A DNA stretch of 5,329 nucleotides from a virus (Duplodnaviria > Heunggongvirae > Uroviricota > Caudoviricetes), in the IMG/VR virus record IMGVR_UViG_2913177423_000004; one strand, 5' to 3'. Both the position numbers and the translations under genes were made by a program. The notes beneath the pieces were generated by a model. It did not search any database and was not told the DNA's origin. It saw only the letters and a list, made by a program, of their open reading frames with translations. Shown piece after piece: positions 1 through 5,329 of the stretch (within the stretch, counting starts at the first letter, position 1; each line of letters starts with the position of its first letter).

Positions 1-1
1 G

Positions 2-166
2 CCAGTTTTTGTTGACCACTACAACGTTGACCTGGCCGCCAGCGGCGTTGCCTACAAAGAGCGGATGAATATACCGGTAATTGCAGAACAGGTAGCCCGT
101 GAGCAACCGGAGAACTTGCACACCTATTTCATGGAACGGCTACGATACTGGCCGGCGTTGAATTAA
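2..166 (+). CDS. 3' end of an upstream phage gene (partial; start lies outside the window), product unknown
   Basis: Frame-2 reading frame is open from the window edge to TAA at 164..166 (54 sense codons, ...[13 protein letters not shown]). GC-rich third codon positions. Absent from the ORF track because it is truncated. Product not recognised. Confidence 0.4.
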
Positions 167-225
167 TCCACATGATGCGCAAGGGGCAATATCAGCATCC
201 TCAGGGTGATGGATTGTCACCCACA

Positions 226-272
226 GAACAATTTTATCTGCTGACTTTCCACCGTTAACGCGACACAACCTT
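226..272. repeat. Left arm of a long inverted repeat; perfect 32-bp core at 241..272
   Basis: 241..272 (ctgactttccaccgttaacgcgacacaacctt) is the exact reverse complement of 1226..1257. Flanking bases 226..240 also match the reverse complement of 1292..1305 with one T indel. Weaker similarity continues outward to about 205 on the left and 1325 on the right. Confidence 0.85.
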
Positions 273-438
273 AATATGCCACAAAGGTTTTTGTTAACGA
301 GCTGCATCTTTTTCTTTTCTGGGTGATGATTGTTTTATAATAAACAAATAACAACATTTATTCTTGTAAAAGTAATAATATCTCTTTGGTGATCGAATTT
401 ATTGATCGCATTTCAATTAAACAAATAAGGAGTTTTTT

Positions 439-1140
439 ATGCCCAAAATTACCGGTGTTCTAGTGAGCCACCATGTGTTCGATATAAAAAAAGACATGGC
501 TAATGGTTCATTCCCGAAAACATTATTTCCAGGCGCGACATTTCAGATGGTGGTTGACAATGATGTTGTCAATAATAATACGTTGGACTGGAGTGTTGTC
601 ACCAATGCGGGAGACAATTCGCTGACTGTAAATCAGGACGGCGTGGTGTCATTTTCAAATGATATTGATGAAAGTTGCATTGGTAAAACATTTGTTATTT
701 TTGCGAAGGATAAAGCCACAGGGAAAAATGTGTCATCTTATTTAATTAAACCTTATCGCTTCTTTAAACCTCGTACCGCAACGTCGGACAGATTTTACGA
801 TGCATTGTTTTGGATTGAGGATAAAAAAGGGACTGTCCCGGCACGACGCGATATCAATAATGTCCCTTTCGATGAACTGACGGGAGAAATGTTTCATGAT
901 GTAAAACGTGAAGTGAATTCCGGGCTTTTTCAGGAATGGGGATTTTTACTGTTTAGTGGGTGGACTAATCCTGTACGTGGTGATATTGGTAGTCTCGAAT
1001 CAGAAATTTTCACTTTAGAAAATGACAGTATATTTATATCGACAGTCAACTCCCTCCCATACTCCAGAGATCTCCATGATGATATGGACTCCCAGTCTGC
1101 ACAGGCTGTAGCGTTTTACGGGGAATCTGTTGTTTCCTGA
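439..1140 (+). CDS. Hypothetical protein, 233 aa, AT-rich orphan gene; possible beta-rich Ig-like N-terminal region; function unknown
   Basis: ATG at 439 is preceded by a strong Shine-Dalgarno (taaggag at 426..432, 6-nt spacer). Uninterrupted 233-codon frame ending TGA at 1138..1140. Composition is visibly more AT-rich than int or ybhC. No signal peptide and no catalytic motif that I can name. Residues ~30-100 (ATFQMVVDNDVV...LDWSVVTNAGDNSLTVNQDGVVSF...) have the alternating pattern of a bacterial Ig-like domain, but this is an impression, not a match. Confidence 0.8.
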   Translation: MPKITGVLVSHHVFDIKKDMANGSFPKTLFPGATFQMVVDNDVVNNNTLDWSVVTNAGDNSLTVNQDGVVSFSNDIDESCIGKTFVIFAKDKATGKNVSSYLIKPYRFFKPRTATSDRFYDALFWIEDKKGTVPARRDINNVPFDELTGEMFHDVKREVNSGLFQEWGFLLFSGWTNPVRGDIGSLESEIFTLENDSIFISTVNSLPYSRDLHDDMDSQSAQAVAFYGESVVS

Positions 1141-1162
1141 TGTTTTAATGAGTTTTTAATAG

Positions 1163-1193
1163 TCTCCGTCTTTTTAATTTAAAGAGACGGAGA
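1163..1193. terminator. Palindromic stem-loop 23 bp after the 233-aa ORF; possible terminator or protein/RNase site
   Basis: tctccgtcttttt (1163..1175) pairs with aaagagacggaga (1181..1193): 13 bp including one G-U pair, loop aattt. It is not followed by a clean T-tract on either strand, so it is not a canonical intrinsic terminator. Confidence 0.35.
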
Positions 1194-1225
1194 TTATCGG
1201 CTCTGCAACGTGAAGCTCAGGAACA

Positions 1226-1305
1226 AAGGTTGTGTCGCGTTAACGGTGGAAAGTCAGCAAAAGTTGTATTGCTGGCTTTTCATGCAGCCAGCAGATAAAT
1301 TGTTC
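1226..1305. repeat. Right arm of the long inverted repeat; perfect 32-bp core at 1226..1257, then a ~34-bp insertion, then the extended match
   Basis: 1226..1257 is the exact reverse complement of 241..272. 1258..1291 has no counterpart on the left and contains its own small hairpin (gctggc ... gccagc). 1292..1305 resumes the match to 226..240. Confidence 0.85.
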
Positions 1306-1476
1306 CGCGGGTGACAGCCATTACCGCGAAGGCATATTGCAAGGGGCGTTGCTTGTGGTCGATTCCTCACTCACTCCAGTTGATGGTTCGCTGCTTGTAT
1401 GTGCTTATCGCATAAAGAGATATCGGAAGCATCCGCGCCGCTATGATTGTCTTTCTCCTGATGCAGGAAAAGCAGA

Positions 1477-1791
1477 ATGGCTAAATCAGCAGCAGAGCGC
1501 AAAGCCGATCAGAGAGCCAAGCAAGCATCATCCGGTATGCGTAAGCTGGAGCTTGTACTTGATGCTCAGGAAATTGAAATGCTGGAGCGTAACTGTGCCA
1601 CGCGTCGCTTCAGGCGTGCGCCTTACGAGTTTGGTGAGTACATCGCGTTACTGAGCCGCCAGGATGATGCACTTGTGCGCTGGCGTATAAAATCGATCAG
1701 CATAAAACGTTGCGGTAAGTGCGGCGAGAGAGTTCCTGTTAATTCATGCCCGTGTAATGGTGACTCACAATGCTGGGTGACCAAAGGCTGA
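1477..1791 (+). CDS. Hypothetical small protein, 104 aa, charged helical N-terminal part plus C-terminal Cys cluster (putative zinc ribbon); possibly an Ea8.5-like protein
   Basis: ATG at 1477 with AGGA at 1465..1468 (8-nt spacer); stop TGA at 1789..1791. C-terminus RCGKCGERVPVNSCPCNGDSQC has a C-x2-C-x8-C-x-C-x5-C spacing typical of a zinc-binding knuckle. The overlapping ORF 1337..1654 in another frame looks non-protein-like. An alternative start at the internal Met (codon 21, nt 1537) cannot be excluded. The Ea8.5 comparison is from memory of its described homeodomain/zinc-finger fold, not from sequence alignment. Confidence 0.6.
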   Translation: MAKSAAERKADQRAKQASSGMRKLELVLDAQEIEMLERNCATRRFRRAPYEFGEYIALLSRQDDALVRWRIKSISIKRCGKCGERVPVNSCPCNGDSQCWVTKG

Positions 1792-1820
1792 TTCGAATTT
1801 AAGAACTGAAAGAACACCAA

Positions 1821-1841
1821 GCCGCCTGATGGCGGTTTTTT
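1821..1841 (+). terminator. Rho-independent terminator-like hairpin (GC stem + T6)
   Basis: gccgcc tgat ggcgg followed by tttttt (1836..1841), 30 bp downstream of the 104-aa ORF stop. The first in-frame ATG of the next ORF (1829) lies inside this stem-loop, so it is unlikely to be the real start. Confidence 0.6.
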
Positions 1842-1855
1842 ATTGGAGACAAGAA

Positions 1856-2200
1856 ATGTCAGATTTGGCTATGAAGATTTTGAAATGGCAAACGACTGGC
1901 GATGTCGGCATCAGTAGCGCAACTCTTGCCTCAATCGCATGTGGACTGAAAAAGAATATCTATGGTCATCACTTCGGTGCTCCACATGACGCAGCCGATT
2001 TCCGACGATGCGTTGCACTTGTTGAGCAGATTCCAGAAATCAGAGATTCATTCGACAAGGTTGCAAAGCGCGTTCCGGCATTCAAAGGCATCCTCAACGA
2101 ATGGGATTCTCTCGTTGCTCTGTTGAAGTCTGAAATGAAGATACACGGAAACAAAGCACCAGAAACTTACAGAAGAATTAGCGAGCTACGCAAGTACTAA
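1856..2200 (+). CDS. Hypothetical protein, 114 aa (MSDLAMKILKWQ...), function unknown
   Basis: ATG at 1856 preceded by GGAG at 1845..1848 (7-nt spacer); stop TAA at 2198..2200. The ORF track starts it at 1829 (123 aa), but that ATG is inside the upstream terminator hairpin. The gene is followed by two hairpins (2206..2224 and 2259..2279). Product not recognised. Confidence 0.7.
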   Translation: MSDLAMKILKWQTTGDVGISSATLASIACGLKKNIYGHHFGAPHDAADFRRCVALVEQIPEIRDSFDKVAKRVPAFKGILNEWDSLVALLKSEMKIHGNKAPETYRRISELRKY

Positions 2201-2258
2201 CCACAGCCTCACACTCGATGAGGCCTGTTCATTTCTCAAGATATCCAGACCTACCATC

Positions 2259-2279
2259 GCCGCATCAATGCGGCTTTTT
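2259..2279 (+). terminator. Rho-independent terminator-like hairpin (stem + T5) immediately upstream of the pI / xis region
   Basis: gccgca tcaa tgcggc followed by ttttt (2275..2279). A second hairpin (gcctca cactcga tgaggc, 2206..2224) sits directly after the stop codon of the 114-aa gene. Confidence 0.55.
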
Positions 2280-2280
2280 C

Positions 2281-2294
2281 TTGCGTGTAATTGC
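2281..2294 (+). promoter_or_regulatory. cII-binding box (TTGC-N6-TTGC) of the int promoter pI
   Basis: ttgc gtgtaa ttgc at 2281..2294, immediately upstream of and overlapping the xis translation initiation region. This matches the established arrangement of lambda pI, where the cII-activated promoter overlaps the start of xis so that the transcript encodes Int but not Xis. Confidence 0.65.
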
Positions 2295-2306
2295 GGAGAC
2301 TTTGCG

Positions 2307-2525
2307 ATGTACTTGACACTTCAGGAGTGGAACGCACGCCAGCGACGCCCAAGAAGCCTTGAAACAGTTCGTCGATGGGTACGCGAGTGCAGGATATTCC
2401 CTCCTCCGGTTAAAGATGGAAGAGAGTATCTGTTCCACGAATCAGCGGTAAAGGTTGACTTAAATCGACCAGTAACAGGTAGCCTTTTGAAGAGGATCAA
2501 AAATGGGAAGAAGGCGAAGTCATGA
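2307..2525 (+). CDS. xis: Excisionase Xis (lambda-type), 72 aa
   Basis: Protein MYLTLQEWNARQRRPRSLETVRRWVRECRIFPPPVKDGREYLFHESAVKVDLNRPVTGSLLKRIKNGKKAKS matches lambda Xis as I recall it. GGAG at 2295..2298 precedes the ATG at 2307. The ORF-track start at 2268 lies inside the upstream terminator hairpin and is rejected. The 3' end overlaps the int start by 23 bp, as in lambda. Confidence 0.95.
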   Translation: MYLTLQEWNARQRRPRSLETVRRWVRECRIFPPPVKDGREYLFHESAVKVDLNRPVTGSLLKRIKNGKKAKS

Positions 2526-3573
2526 GCGCCGGGATTTACCCCCTAATCTTTATATAAGAAACAATGGATATTACTGCTACAGGGACCCAAGGACGGGTAA
2601 AGAGTTTGGATTAGGCCGAGACAGGAGGATAGCAATCACTGAAGCTATACAGGCCAACATTGAGTTATTTTCAGGACACAAGCACAAGCCTCTGACAGCG
2701 AGAATCAACAGTGATAATTCTGTTACGTTACATTCATGGCTTGATCGCTACGAAAAAATCCTCGCCAGCAGAGGAATCAAGCAGAAGACACTCATAAATT
2801 ACATGAGCAAAATTAAAGCAATAAGGAGGGGTCTGCCTGATGCTCCACTTGAAGACATCACCACAAAAGAAATTGCGGCAATGCTCAATGGATACATAGA
2901 CGAGGGCAAGGCGGCGTCAGCCAAGTTAATCAGATCAACACTGAGCGATGCATTCCGAGAGGCAATAGCTGAAGGCCATATAACAACAAACCCGGTCGCT
3001 GCCACTCGCGCAGCAAAATCAGAGGTAAGGAGATCAAGACTTACGGCTGACGAATACCTGAAAATTTATCAAGCAGCAGAATCATCACCATGTTGGCTCA
3101 GACTTGCAATGGAACTGGCTGTTGTTACCGGGCAGCGAGTTGGTGATTTATGCGAAATGAAGTGGTCTGATATCGTAGATGGATATCTTTATGTCGAGCA
3201 AAGCAAAACAGGCGTAAAAATTGCCATCCCTACAACATTGCATGTTGATGCTCTCGGGATATCAATGAAGGAAACACTTGATAAATGCAAAGAGATTCTT
3301 GGCGGAGAAACCATAATTGCATCTACTCGTCGTGAACCGCTTTCATCCGGCACAGTATCAAGGTATTTTATGCGCGCACGAAAAGCATCAGGTCTTTCCT
3401 TCGAAGGGGATCCGCCAACCTTTCACGAGTTGCGCAGTTTGTCTGCAAGACTCTATGAGAAGCAGATAAGCGATAAATTTGCTCAACATCTTCTCGGGCA
3501 TAAGTCGGACACCATGGCATCACAGTATCGTGATGACAGAGGCAGGGAGTGGGACAAAATTGAAATCAAATAA
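2503..3573 (+). CDS. int: Tyrosine site-specific integrase Int (lambda-type), 356 aa
   Basis: Protein MGRRRSHERRDLPPNLYIRNNGYYCYRDPRTGKEFGLGRD...HLLGHKSDTMASQYRDDRGREWDKIEIK matches lambda Int in length and sequence as far as I can recall, including the C-terminal catalytic region (R...HxxR...Y). GAGG at 2492..2495 precedes the ATG at 2503. Confidence 0.97.
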   Translation: MGRRRSHERRDLPPNLYIRNNGYYCYRDPRTGKEFGLGRDRRIAITEAIQANIELFSGHKHKPLTARINSDNSVTLHSWLDRYEKILASRGIKQKTLINYMSKIKAIRRGLPDAPLEDITTKEIAAMLNGYIDEGKAASAKLIRSTLSDAFREAIAEGHITTNPVAATRAAKSEVRRSRLTADEYLKIYQAAESSPCWLRLAMELAVVTGQRVGDLCEMKWSDIVDGYLYVEQSKTGVKIAIPTTLHVDALGISMKETLDKCKEILGGETIIASTRREPLSSGTVSRYFMRARKASGLSFEGDPPTFHELRSLSARLYEKQISDKFAQHLLGHKSDTMASQYRDDRGREWDKIEIK

Positions 3574-3646: not shown

Positions 3647-3661
3647 TTAGTATAAAAAAGC
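3647..3661 (-). other. att common core (15 bp) of attL, the phage/host junction
   Basis: ttagtataaaaaagc is the reverse complement of the lambda core GCTTTTTTATACTAA. It is preceded by gccaac (reverse complement of the P' start GTTGGC) and followed by aggcttcaacg (reverse complement of the attB B-arm CGTTGAAGCCT). Confidence 0.9.
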
Positions 3662-3708
3662 AGGCTTCAACGGATTCATTTTTTCCATTTTAAAGCCCGG
3701 AGCAACCT

Positions 3709-4992
3709 GTGAACACATTTTCAGTTTCCCGTCTGGCGCTGGCACTGGCTTTTGGCGTGACGCTGACCGCCTGTAGCTCAACACCGCCCGATCAACGTCC
3801 TTCTGATCAAACCGCGCCTGGTACCTCTTCTCGCCCGATTCTGTCGGCAAAAGAAGCGCAGAATTTCGATGCTCAACACTATTTTGCATCCCTGACACCA
3901 GGTGCTGCAGCGTGGAATCCTTCCCCGATTACCCTGCCTGCGCAACCTGACTTTGTTGTCGGCCCGGCGGGTACCCAAGGTGTAACGCATACCACGATTC
4001 AGGCAGCGGTGGATGCGGCAATTATCAAGCGTACCAACAAGCGCCAGTATATTGCCGTGATGCCTGGTGAGTATGAAGGCACGGTCTATGTCCCTGCCGC
4101 TCCGGGTGGAATTACTCTGTACGGTACAGGTGAAAAACCGATTGATGTGAAGATTGGGCTTTCCCTTGATGGGAGCATGAGCCCTGCCGACTGGCGTCAC
4201 GACGTCAACCCGCGCGGCAAATATATGCCAGGTAAACCAGCGTGGTACATGTACGATAGCTGCCAGAGCAAACGCAGCGACAGTATTGGCGTGCTCTGTT
4301 CTGCGGTTTTCTGGTCACAAAACAATGGCCTGCAACTGCAAAACCTGACCATCGAAAACACGCTGGGCGATAGCGTAGATGCGGGTAACCATCCGGCGGT
4401 GGCACTGCGTACTGATGGCGACAAAGTGCAGATCAATAACGTCAACATTCTCGGTCGTCAGAACACCTTCTTTGTCACCAACAGTGGTGTGCAAAACCGT
4501 CTGGAAACCAATCGTCAACCGCGTACTCTGGTGACGAATAGCTATATTGAAGGGGATGTGGATATCGTTTCTGGTCGCGGCGCGGTGGTGTTCGATAATA
4601 CCGAATTCCGCGTGGTGAACTCCCGTACTCAGCAAGAAGCGTATGTGTTTGCACCGGCTACGCTGTCTAACATCTATTACGGTTTCCTCGCCGTAAACAG
4701 CCGTTTCAATGCTTCCGGTGATGGCGTGGCGCAACTGGGCCGCTCGCTGGATGTTGATGCCAATACCAACGGTCAGGTGGTGATCCGTGATAGCGCCATC
4801 AACGAAGGTTTTAACACGGCTAAACCGTGGGCCGATGCGGTGATTTCCAATCGTCCATTTGCGGGTAATACCGGCAGCGTTGACGATAGCGACGAAGTAC
4901 AGCGCAATCTGAATGACACTAACTACAACCGCATGTGGGAATACAATAACCGCGGCGTGGGTAGCAAAGTGGTTGCAGAAGCGAAGAAGTAA
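3709..4992 (+). CDS. ybhC: Outer-membrane lipoprotein YbhC (pectinesterase-family fold, putative acyl-CoA thioesterase), 427 aa
   Basis: GTG start at 3709 with GGAG at 3699..3702. N-terminus MNTFSVSRLALALAFGVTLTAC has a lipoprotein signal peptide and lipobox (LTAC). Length and sequence match E. coli YbhC as I recall it. It is the host gene adjacent to the lambda attachment site on the gal side. Confidence 0.93.
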   Translation: MNTFSVSRLALALAFGVTLTACSSTPPDQRPSDQTAPGTSSRPILSAKEAQNFDAQHYFASLTPGAAAWNPSPITLPAQPDFVVGPAGTQGVTHTTIQAAVDAAIIKRTNKRQYIAVMPGEYEGTVYVPAAPGGITLYGTGEKPIDVKIGLSLDGSMSPADWRHDVNPRGKYMPGKPAWYMYDSCQSKRSDSIGVLCSAVFWSQNNGLQLQNLTIENTLGDSVDAGNHPAVALRTDGDKVQINNVNILGRQNTFFVTNSGVQNRLETNRQPRTLVTNSYIEGDVDIVSGRGAVVFDNTEFRVVNSRTQQEAYVFAPATLSNIYYGFLAVNSRFNASGDGVAQLGRSLDVDANTNGQVVIRDSAINEGFNTAKPWADAVISNRPFAGNTGSVDDSDEVQRNLNDTNYNRMWEYNNRGVGSKVVAEAKK

Positions 4993-5008
4993 GAGCTATT
5001 AACTATTT

Positions 5009-5285
5009 GCCGGATGCGGTGTAAACGCCTTATCCGGCCTACGGTTCGATGCGATTTGTAGGTCGGATAAGATGCGCAAGCATCGCATCCGACAATAAGT
5101 GCCGAAATGCGGCGTAAACGCCTTATCCGGACTACGGTTCGATGCGATTTGTAGGTCGGATAAGATGCGCAAGCATCGCATCCGACAATAAATGCCGGAT
5201 GCGGCGTGACCGCCTTATCCGGCCTACGGTTCGATGCGATTTGTAGGTCGGATAAGATGCGCAAGCATCGCATCCGACAATAAGT
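5009..5285. repeat. Three tandem REP/BIME units (about 92 bp each), the E. coli repetitive extragenic palindrome cluster downstream of ybhC
   Basis: Units at 5009..5100, 5101..5193 and 5194..5285. Each contains gccggatgcggcgtaaacgccttatccggcctac (the canonical REP palindrome) followed by a second palindromic unit ...gtaggtcggataagatgcgcaagcatcgcatccgac.... A partial fourth copy starts at 5286. The minus-strand ORFs 4923..5273 and 4999..5181 are artefacts of these repeats. Confidence 0.9.
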
Positions 5286-5329
5286 GCCGGATGTGTAGTG
5301 GCATAGTAAATTTGGCCACCTGAATAGAG

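What the first reader, a model, noticed from the sequence alone, without database searches (positions are those of the whole stretch)
1821..2280. 114-aa gene looks like a moron inserted into a terminator T-tract just upstream of pI and xis
The gene (1856..2200) is bracketed by two similar hairpin + T-tract elements: gccgcc-tgat-ggcgg-T6 at 1821..1841 and gccgca-tcaa-tgcggc-T5 at 2259..2279. It has its own SD directly after the first T-tract. From memory, the lambda sequence upstream of the pI cII box reads as a single such hairpin (…AAAAAACCGCCATCAGGCGGCTTGG… on the opposite strand) abutting the TTGC-N6-TTGC box. If that recollection is right, roughly 1842..2277 is an insertion relative to lambda that brought its own terminator. 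I cannot verify the lambda sequence here, so the comparison is provisional; the two-terminator bracket is directly visible.
Basis: partly seen in the sequence, partly recalled or inferred. Interest (0 to 1): 0.55.

Follow-up and report, generated by a model that had tools for sequence, protein, structure and literature searches.

The report
Known accessory gene slot before xis
The 114-residue gene between two terminator hairpins just upstream of the excision and integration genes is the long-annotated "ORF114" of phages 434 and HK022, one of several interchangeable cargo genes at a known mosaic junction of lambda-like phages, so the finding is real but ordinary.

Summary
Hairpin 1 plus T6 lies at 1821-1841, the gene at 1856-2200, hairpin 2 plus T5 at 2259-2279, and the cII box of pI at 2281-2294. 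Lambda reads hairpin 1, T6, then the cII box, so the window carries 438 extra bases (1842-2279).

This is already known. GenBank M60848 (phage 434) annotates ORF55, ORF114, terminator t'I, xis and int in that order, and HK022 has the same arrangement. The segment occurs in about 1,000 of 5,426 complete E. coli genomes.

The "moron with its own terminator" reading is only partly supported:
- I found no promoter-like site.
- GC content does not differ from the neighbours.
- The 438 bases are a composite of ORF114, a fossil of the first ~20 codons of a P22-type xis (2202-2255), and hairpin 2. Each part occurs without the others in other phages.
- P22 (eaC) and IME10 carry different genes between the same flanks.
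- Whether the difference from lambda arose by insertion or deletion cannot be resolved.

ORF114 is a real gene: dN/dS is 0-0.28 and the predicted structure has pLDDT 96. It belongs to a large phage family with no known function and no solved-structure relative.

The parts
1791..1841 (+). Left boundary element. It consists of a non-coding remnant of the last 39 bases of lambda orf55 (with an internal TAA here) plus hairpin 1 (1821-1835) and T6 (1836-1841). The TGA in the hairpin loop is the orf55 stop codon in lambda and 434.
   Evidence: It is 96-97% identical to lambda, 434, P22, IME10, VT2-Sakai, mEp213 and E. coli 042. After the T-run the sequence continues in five different ways. The P22 record annotates it as terminator t'I. 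RNA fold: -13.4 kcal/mol, z = -3.7.
1844..1847 (+). Shine-Dalgarno sequence GGAG of ORF114, 8 bases before the ATG.
   Evidence: Read from the sequence. The same Shine-Dalgarno sequence and the first bases ATGTCAG also precede P22 eaC.
1856..2200 (+). ORF114, a 114-residue all-alpha protein of family phrog_1229 with unknown function.
   Evidence: It differs from the 434 ORF114 protein at 6 of 114 residues (95% identity). phrog_1229 match E = 2e-51. dN/dS 0.00-0.28. AlphaFold2 pLDDT 96.3, seven helices. 1,856 representative clusters at E <= 0.001.
2202..2255 (+). Right boundary element: a fossil of the 5' end of a P22-type xis gene. It encodes HSLTLDEACSFLKISRPT and contains the hairpin GCCTCA-N7-TGAGGC (2206-2224). 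It is in frame with the lambda-type xis downstream.
   Evidence: 18 of 24 residues are identical to P22 Xis residues 4-27, pairwise E = 2e-11. It is conserved in 434, HK97, PhiR70_1, P22, IME10, HK542 and mEp213, with three different continuations after CCTACC.
2259..2279 (+). Hairpin 2 plus T5, an intrinsic-terminator-like element immediately upstream of pI. The 434 record calls it t'I.
   Evidence: Annotated as a terminator in M60848.1, OL657226.1 and AF069529.1. RNA fold: -10.5 kcal/mol, z = -2.6. It is present in HK97, PhiR70_1 and IME10 without ORF114.
2281..2294 (+). cII box TTGCGTGTAATTGC of promoter pI.
   Evidence: One of two TTGYN6TTGY matches in the window; the other is inside ybhC on the minus strand. 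It is identical to lambda and is annotated as the cII site in the 434 record.
2307..2525 (+). xis, the lambda-type excisionase (72 residues).
   Evidence: Translation; 96-98% nucleotide identity to the lambda, 434 and HK97 xis region.
2503..3573 (+). int, the lambda-type integrase (356 residues).
   Evidence: ORF list and annotated homologues.
3647..3661 (-). attL core (reverse complement of GCTTTTTTATACTAA). The bacterial arm and ybhC follow.
   Evidence: Read from the sequence. The 'O core of attP' feature of the 434 record lies at the corresponding position after int. ybhC lies next to int in E. coli prophages.
1477..1791 (+). Upstream 104-residue gene (phrog_536). Its 3' end is cut by the junction at 1790/1791, and it takes its stop codon from that junction.
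   Evidence: phrog_536 match E = 2.6e-45. Homology to Chlobot and EP91B ends at 1790, where the relative in EP91B is 112 residues long.

Best explanation
The region is the far end of the leftward early (pL, exo-to-xis) operon of a lambda-integrase-type prophage sitting at attB next to ybhC. Between the conserved orf55-end terminator (hairpin 1) and the pI-xis-int module lies a slot that different lambdoid and P22-like phages fill with different cargo. Lambda has nothing there. The window, 434, HK022, mEp213 and many E. coli prophages have ORF114. P22 has eaC. IME10 has a small unrelated ORF.

Shown here:
- The window differs from lambda by a 438-base segment.
- That segment is a composite of ORF114, a fossil of a P22-type xis start, and hairpin 2.
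- The conserved flanks (about 50-65 bases on the left, about 54 on the right) and the T-runs that follow the hairpins are the points where the mosaic pieces join.

Inferred:
- The flanks act as short homology for recombination, which swaps cargo genes and integration modules. This would explain why junction type does not track xis similarity.
- ORF114 has no promoter of its own. It would be made only after infection or induction, from pL transcripts that N protein carries through hairpin 1, using its own Shine-Dalgarno sequence.
- Hairpins 1 and 2 stop unmodified RNA polymerase before pI-xis-int.
- The protein is a compact seven-helix early protein. Most probably it binds a host or phage partner, as proposed for other exo-xis proteins. 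Its target is unknown.
For: - Lambda, window and 434 alignment: the indel is exact and lies in the T-run.
- M60848.1 annotates ORF55, ORF114, t'I, xis and int. OL657226.1 and HK97 annotate hairpin 2 as a terminator.
- The left element is shared by seven phages and prophages, with five different continuations after the T-run. P22 eaC starts with the same Shine-Dalgarno sequence and ATGTCAG.
- The right element is shared by eight, with three continuations. It equals the P22 Xis N-terminus.
- IME10 has a third cargo gene between hairpin 1 and the right element plus hairpin 2.
- HK97, HK542 and others keep the last 49 bases of ORF114 as a remnant, next to two different integration modules.
- Prevalence: the segment is in 1,058 of 5,426 E. 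coli genomes. The lambda-type junction query is at least 80% covered in 1,713 genomes, a count that includes joined two-piece (insert-carrying) hits. In an evenly spaced sample, 35 of 39 full-length hits have no insert.
- The window's xis region is closer to Chlobot and EP91B, which have the hairpin 1 junction (97.7%), than to 434, which has the hairpin 2 junction (96.2%).
- ORF114 is a real gene: dN/dS 0-0.28, pLDDT 96.3, 1,856 clusters. Distant relatives sit in phage early regions near helicase, primase and repressor genes.
- No promoter-like site lies near 1700-1860.
Against: - There is no transcript or protein evidence for this window. Dependence on pL and N is inferred from the gene's position and from established lambda biology.
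- The consensus promoter scan is crude and cannot exclude a weak or non-sigma-70 promoter.
- Termination at hairpins 1 and 2 was not measured here. The annotations in the database records may themselves be predictions.
- Coincidence of junctions with terminators could reflect only selection, because junctions in non-coding DNA are harmless, and not a recombination mechanism.
- The protein's function is entirely unknown.
Confidence: 0.8

Rival explanations
1. A self-contained moron (the gene plus its own terminator, hairpin 2) was inserted once into the T-tract of the single terminator of a lambda-like ancestor.
For: Lambda shows the uninterrupted arrangement and both indel ends lie in T-runs. 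The gene has its own Shine-Dalgarno sequence. The empty junction is about nine times commoner among orf55-to-xis arrangements in E. coli.
Against: - No promoter-like site was found and GC content does not deviate.
- Hairpin 2 and ORF114 occur independently of each other.
- The extra segment contains a fossil of a P22-type xis, so it is not one unit.
- P22 eaC and the IME10 ORF occupy the same slot between the same flanks.
Confidence: 0.15
2. The filled slot is ancestral. The lambda arrangement arose by deletion of ORF114, the xis fossil and hairpin 2, through slippage or short-homology recombination between the two similar hairpin and T-run elements (16 of 21 bases identical).
For: - Such a deletion reproduces the lambda sequence exactly.
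- Hairpin 2 joined to pI occurs in three different upstream contexts (434, HK97, PhiR70_1). Hairpin 1 joined to pI was always seen behind orf55.
- The right element plus hairpin 2 exists without pI in IME10.
- ORF114 remnants in HK97 and HK542 show the gene is old at this position.
Against: - The empty junction is widespread and diverse.
- Reassortment by flanking homology erases the direction of the event.
- The similarity of the two hairpins may be convergent. A third similar hairpin, GCCGC-TATAT-GGCGG, precedes the Stx2a_WGPS6 excisionase gene.
Confidence: 0.35
3. ORF114 is not a functional gene but a chance ORF between two terminators.
For: There is no Pfam, NCBIfam or PADLOC match and no known function.
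Against: dN/dS is 0.00-0.28 across five alleles. The phrog_1229 match has E = 2e-51. There are 1,856 homologous clusters with 8 invariant and 4 nearly invariant alignment positions. The AlphaFold2 model has pLDDT 96.3. A good Shine-Dalgarno sequence is present.
Confidence: 0.02

Closest known systems
ORF114 of phage 434 (GenBank M60848.1, protein AAA67902.1; CPT_434_33 in OL657226.1) and HK022p30 of phage HK022
   Same: Same gene (95% identity to the 434 protein, 108 of 114 residues). Same position between hairpin 1 and the right element, hairpin 2, pI, xis and int. Same Shine-Dalgarno sequence. The same hairpin 2 is annotated as t'I.
   Different: In 434 and HK022 the upstream gene is an intact orf55. 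In the window only the last 39 bases of orf55 remain, behind a truncated 104-residue gene of a different family. That junction (1790/1791) was not found in any complete E. coli genome searched.
Lambda orf55 (lambdap35), terminator hairpin and pI arrangement
   Same: Identical left element, identical cII box and pI, and homologous xis and int at 96%.
   Different: Lambda has no ORF114, no xis fossil and no hairpin 2. The T-run of hairpin 1 abuts the cII box directly.
P22 eaC, with t'I and xis
   Same: Same left element, same Shine-Dalgarno sequence and first seven coding bases, and the same sequence directly after the cargo gene.
   Different: The cargo is eaC (636 bases), unrelated to ORF114. 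The right element is the live start of P22 xis, not a fossil. The P22 record assigns hairpin 1 to the opposite strand, as the 3' end of an antisense aI RNA.
Morons in the sense of Juhala et al. 2000 (for example HK97 gene 15), as defined in PMC3594210
   Same: Extra DNA between genes that are adjacent in a related phage, followed by a terminator.
   Different: No promoter of its own was detected, GC content does not deviate, and the terminator is not specific to the gene. Expression from the repressed prophage is therefore not expected.
Accessory proteins of the lambda and Stx-phage exo-xis region (orf60a, orf63, orf61, orf73, ea22, ea8.5, orf55; PMC8614690)
   Same: Small, dispensable early gene at the distal end of the pL operon. 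Function is unknown or host-modulating.
   Different: ORF114 is not among the proteins modelled in that paper, and its predicted fold matches no solved structure.

Membership tests
Moron (Juhala et al. 2000; definition quoted in PMC3594210) | Extra DNA between two genes or elements that are adjacent in a related phage | tested here: met
   In lambda, orf55 plus hairpin 1 abuts pI. The window has 438 extra bases.
Moron (Juhala et al. 2000; definition quoted in PMC3594210) | A promoter of its own that gives expression from the repressed prophage | tested here: not met
   No sigma-70-like site lies in 1700-1860, and only 14 bases separate the T-run from the ATG. This is a consensus scan only; no RNA data are available.
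Moron (Juhala et al. 2000; definition quoted in PMC3594210) | A terminator of its own that travels with the gene | tested here: not met
   Hairpin 2 follows the gene here. However, ORF114 occurs without hairpin 2 in mEp213 and Stx2a_WGPS6, and hairpin 2 occurs without ORF114 in HK97, PhiR70_1 and IME10.
Moron (Juhala et al. 2000; definition quoted in PMC3594210) | GC content different from the surrounding genes | tested here: not met
   ORF114 0.455, xis 0.484, int 0.451, upstream gene 0.517.
Intrinsic (rho-independent) terminator, hairpins 1 and 2 | G+C-rich stem-loop followed directly by a T-run on the transcribed strand | tested here: met
   Both are the top-ranked sites in the scan. Fold energies are -13.4 and -10.5 kcal/mol with z = -3.7 and -2.6.
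Intrinsic (rho-independent) terminator, hairpins 1 and 2 | Measured termination of transcription, and read-through when N protein modifies the polymerase | not testable with these tools
   Only database annotations are available (t'I in M60848.1 and P22; putative terminator in HK97). The paper cited in the 434 record (PubMed id 6305007) is not held.
ORF114 / phrog_1229 protein family | Full-length sequence match to the family profile and to the founding members | tested here: met
   phrog_1229 E = 2e-51 over residues 1-113. 108 of 114 residues are identical to 434 ORF114 and 111 of 114 to the mEp213 and E. coli 042 alleles.
Lambda pI promoter (cII-activated) | TTGC-N6-TTGC box flanking the -35 region, just upstream of the xis start codon | tested here: met
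   TTGCGTGTAATTGC at 2281-2294, identical to lambda and 434. Activation by cII was not tested.
P22-type excisionase (the right boundary element as a live gene) | A start codon and a complete Xis reading frame | tested here: not met
   Only residues 4-21 of P22 Xis are present. There is no start codon, and the frame runs on into hairpin 2 and pI. It is a fossil.

The most novel reading that the evidence does not exclude
ORF114 founds a large, unnamed phage protein family. It has about 1,856 clusters at 50% identity, reaches phages of Actinobacteria, and is absent from Pfam. The seven-helix fold is confidently predicted but has no solved-structure neighbour, and the family has an invariant G-x-S-S ... 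P-x-D-x-x-D-x-x-R-C ... W signature. The family could carry out a so far undescribed early function, such as inhibiting a host defence or a host replication or repair factor. If so, the hairpin-flanked slot before xis would be a place where lambdoid phages exchange such counter-measures.
Probability: 0.25. Interest if true: 0.5.

Novelty: already known. Interest (0 to 1): 0.15.

Why it matters
As a discovery it matters little. The gene, the hairpins and the difference from lambda have been in GenBank since the 434 and HK022 int-xis regions were sequenced.

It remains a clean textbook example of lambdoid mosaicism. A terminator and a fossil gene start serve as the seams where cargo genes and integration modules are swapped.

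One point is worth experimental attention. ORF114 is carried by roughly a fifth of E. coli genomes, including O157:H7, O26, O103 and O111 strains and Stx1a phages, and its function is still unknown.

Tried and rejected
Searches that gave no functional lead for ORF114:
- Pfam, NCBIfam and PADLOC scans returned nothing.
- A Pfam scan of all 48 aligned family members gave only noise.
- Pfam scans of ten longer relatives, to look for partner domains, gave nothing.
- A profile search of PDB sequences gave E of at least 0.23.
- Foldseek against BFVD found only uncharacterised phage proteins.
- The afdb50 library was not available.

Other checks that led nowhere:
- Rfam found nothing in 1700-2400. 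Only REP-type naRNA4 hits appeared after ybhC. I therefore found no support for the idea that the conserved left element is a known small RNA.
- There is no LexA box near the upstream genes.
- There is no second cII box that would indicate a P22-like antisense promoter.

Literature:
- Accession numbers for ORF114 appear in no searchable paper.
- The P22 genome paper and the terminator paper cited in the 434 record are not held.

Considered and rejected:
- That ORF114 is a chance ORF (see the rival explanations).
- The 123-residue start at 1829, inside the hairpin 1 loop. The family N-terminus and the Shine-Dalgarno sequence fit the 1856 start.
- Any significance in the xis fossil being in frame with xis. 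An open stretch of 35 codons is expected by chance about 19% of the time.

Full report
**Context.** The window is the attL end of a lambda-integrase-type prophage. It contains int (2503-3573), xis (2307-2525) and the attL core (3647-3661). These are followed by the host gene ybhC (3709-4992) and a REP array. All phage genes in view read on the + strand, so the window is the reverse of the standard lambda map.

**Observation.**
- Hairpin 1 is GCCGCC-TGAT-GGCGG (1821-1835) followed by T6 (1836-1841).
- GGAG lies at 1844-1847, and the ORF runs from ATG 1856 to TAA 2198-2200.
- Hairpin 2 is GCCGCA-TCAA-TGCGGC (2259-2274) followed by T5 (2275-2279).
- The cII box TTGCGTGTAATTGC lies at 2281-2294. 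It is one of only two matches to that pattern in the window; the other is inside ybhC on the minus strand.

The two hairpins rank first and second in the terminator scan. They fold better than shuffled controls, with z = -3.7 and -2.6.

**Comparison with lambda.** Lambda reads ...CACCAAGCCGCCTGATGGCGGTTTTTTCTTGCGTGTAATTGCGG, which is hairpin 1, T6 and then the cII box. The TGA in the hairpin 1 loop is the stop codon of lambda orf55 (lambdap35). The window therefore carries 438 extra bases, 1842-2279. The placement can slide within the T-run.

**Already known.** The GenBank record M60848.1 for phage 434 annotates ORF55, ORF114, terminator t'I (on hairpin 2), xis and int in exactly this order. 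The complete 434 genome record and the HK97 record also mark hairpin 2 as a terminator. The mEp213 record calls the gene a homologue of HK022p30.

The segment is common.
- It matches in 1,058 of 5,426 complete E. coli genomes, and at least 80% of it is covered in 913.
- The lambda-type orf55, hairpin 1, pI query is at least 80% covered in 1,713 genomes; this count includes hits that carry the insert, because the search joins their two pieces. In an evenly spaced sample, 35 of 39 full-length hits are uninterrupted and 4 carry an insert.

**Anatomy of the extra segment.** Pairwise BLAST and alignments against thirteen phage and prophage loci show that the 438 bases are a composite.

*The left element (1791-1841).* It consists of the orf55 3' end, hairpin 1 and T6. 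It is shared by lambda, 434, P22, IME10, VT2-Sakai, mEp213 and E. coli 042. After the T-run the sequences continue in five ways:
- the ORF114 leader;
- the P22 eaC leader, which shares the Shine-Dalgarno sequence and ATGTCAG;
- lambda pI;
- an unrelated IME10 ORF;
- the sequence leading into the VT2-Sakai xis gene.

*ORF114 itself.* It occurs next to the lambda-type int module (434, HK022, Stx1a phages), the SfX-type module (mEp213) and an AlpA-type module (Stx2a_WGPS6).

*The right element (2202-2255).* It is shared by 434, HK97, PhiR70_1, P22, IME10, HK542 and mEp213. It translates to HSLTLDEACSFLKISRPT, which is the N-terminus of P22 Xis. In P22 it is the live start of xis. In the window it has no start codon and runs on into hairpin 2, so it is a fossil left by an earlier exchange of integration modules. 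After CCTACC there are three continuations: hairpin 2, an SfX-type xis leader, and the rest of P22 xis.

*Hairpin 2.* It occurs without ORF114 in HK97, PhiR70_1 and IME10. It is absent after ORF114 in mEp213 and Stx2a_WGPS6. It is therefore not a terminator that the gene brought along.

HK97, mEp235, HK542 and others retain only the last 49 bases of ORF114 (from 2152), next to two different integration modules. This shows that the gene is old at this position and that the right element is a seam where modules recombine.

**Moron test.** I used the definition quoted in PMC3594210. The locus is extra DNA, but it fails the other criteria.
- There is no promoter-like site, and only 14 bases lie between the T-run and the ATG.
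- GC content does not deviate (0.455 against 0.451-0.517 for the neighbours).
- There is no gene-specific terminator.

The low-GC 233-residue ORF at 439-1140, flanked by inverted repeats, is a much better moron candidate in this window.

**Direction of the event.** A deletion between the two similar hairpin and T-run elements (16 of 21 bases identical) would produce the lambda sequence exactly. An insertion would produce the window.

Hairpin 2 joined to pI is seen in three upstream contexts, whereas hairpin 1 joined to pI is seen only behind orf55. This slightly favours deletion in the lambda line.

However, junction type does not follow xis relatedness. The window is 97.7% identical to Chlobot and EP91B, which have the hairpin 1 junction, and 96.2% identical to 434, which has the hairpin 2 junction. 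The two states have therefore been reassorted by recombination in the flanks, and the direction cannot be settled here.

**Is ORF114 a gene, and what does it do?** It is under purifying selection, with dN/dS of 0.00-0.28 over five alleles. It matches phrog_1229 at E = 2e-51. It has 1,856 representative homologue clusters at E <= 0.001. The family has invariant positions at G18, S20, P43, D45, D48, R51, C52 and W83, and nearly invariant W11 and S21.

Distant relatives lie in phage early regions near helicase, primase, repressor and integrase genes. No library assigns a function. The review of exo-xis proteins (PMC8614690) treats orf55 as the last lambda gene before xis and does not cover ORF114.

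**Most likely mechanism.**
- Shown: the anatomy, the conservation, the composite nature of the segment and its prevalence.
- Inferred from position and from established lambda biology: ORF114 is a dispensable delayed-early gene. It is transcribed from pL only when N-modified polymerase reads through hairpin 1, and it is translated from its own Shine-Dalgarno sequence. Hairpins 1 and 2 stop unmodified polymerase ahead of pI, xis and int.
- Also inferred: the conserved flanks provide the short homology by which cargo genes and integration modules are exchanged.
- Open: the protein probably binds a host or phage partner. Its target is unknown.

**Verdict.** The claim that the segment is extra DNA relative to lambda is confirmed. 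The reading of it as a moron that brought its own terminator is not supported. The feature is already known, and interest is low.

Noticed in passing
window 215-1316 (ORF 439-1140): A 233-residue ORF with a Pfam Invasin_D4 domain (E = 1.6e-8) lies in low-GC DNA (0.31-0.41). It has its own hairpin at 1159-1197. It is bracketed by perfect 34-base inverted repeats (239-272 and 1226-1259) that extend imperfectly to 215-246 and 1286-1316. Window 1-1345 has no megablast match in 5,426 complete E. coli genomes, and this ORF has no match in the phage collection. It looks more like a moron or an invertible or duplicated insert than ORF114 does.
   Followed up: partly
window 2-166: The C-terminal part of a homologue of the DNA polymerase III theta subunit (PF06440, E = 1.8e-22). 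It is 86-89% identical in DNA to the hot gene of phages P1 and RCS47. This is an unusual passenger for a lambda-like prophage.
   Followed up: partly
window 2202-2306: A fossil of a P22-type xis N-terminus (HSLTLDEACSFLKISRPT) stays in frame through hairpin 2 and pI into the lambda-type xis. In phage PhiR70_1 the same stretch has an ATG and is annotated as a 110-residue 'excisionase' fusion. The open frame here could be chance (about 19%).
   Followed up: yes
window 1791-1841 and the homologous stretches in L003, L016, L017, L019: A non-coding unit of about 50-65 bases (the orf55 3' remnant, hairpin 1 and the T-run) is conserved at 96-100% in phages that lack orf55 (P22, VT2-Sakai, IME10, E. 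coli 042). In P22, VT2-Sakai and many Stx phages its left edge falls within a few bases of the same point. The P22 record assigns the hairpin to the opposite strand, as the 3' end of an antisense aI RNA. I did not resolve whether the conservation reflects a function beyond termination. Rfam has no family for it.
   Followed up: partly
window 1260-1791: A UmuD-like fragment (...GDSH...LLVVDSSLTPVDGSLLVCAY...) lies upstream of a 104-residue gene of family phrog_536. That gene is cut short at the junction 1790/1791. Relatives in phage Chlobot and E. coli EP91B have a longer version (112 residues in EP91B), followed by a DUF2513 gene and orf55. The 1790/1791 joint was not found in any complete E. 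coli genome.
   Followed up: partly
window 3660-5000 (ybhC): ybhC is at most 97.1% identical to its counterpart in any of 5,417 complete E. coli genomes. The host is therefore probably a divergent Escherichia lineage and not a typical E. coli.
   Followed up: partly
window 4995-5317: Three tandem REP/BIME units of 92-93 bases lie after ybhC. They match Rfam naRNA4 (RF02564) above the gathering score on the minus strand.
   Followed up: no
L006 about 2455-2480 (Stx2a_WGPS6): A third hairpin of the same style (GCCGC-TATAT-GGCGG followed by TTTCTTTTT) sits directly upstream of the AlpA-type excisionase. Unrelated integration modules therefore each begin with a similar terminator.
   Followed up: no
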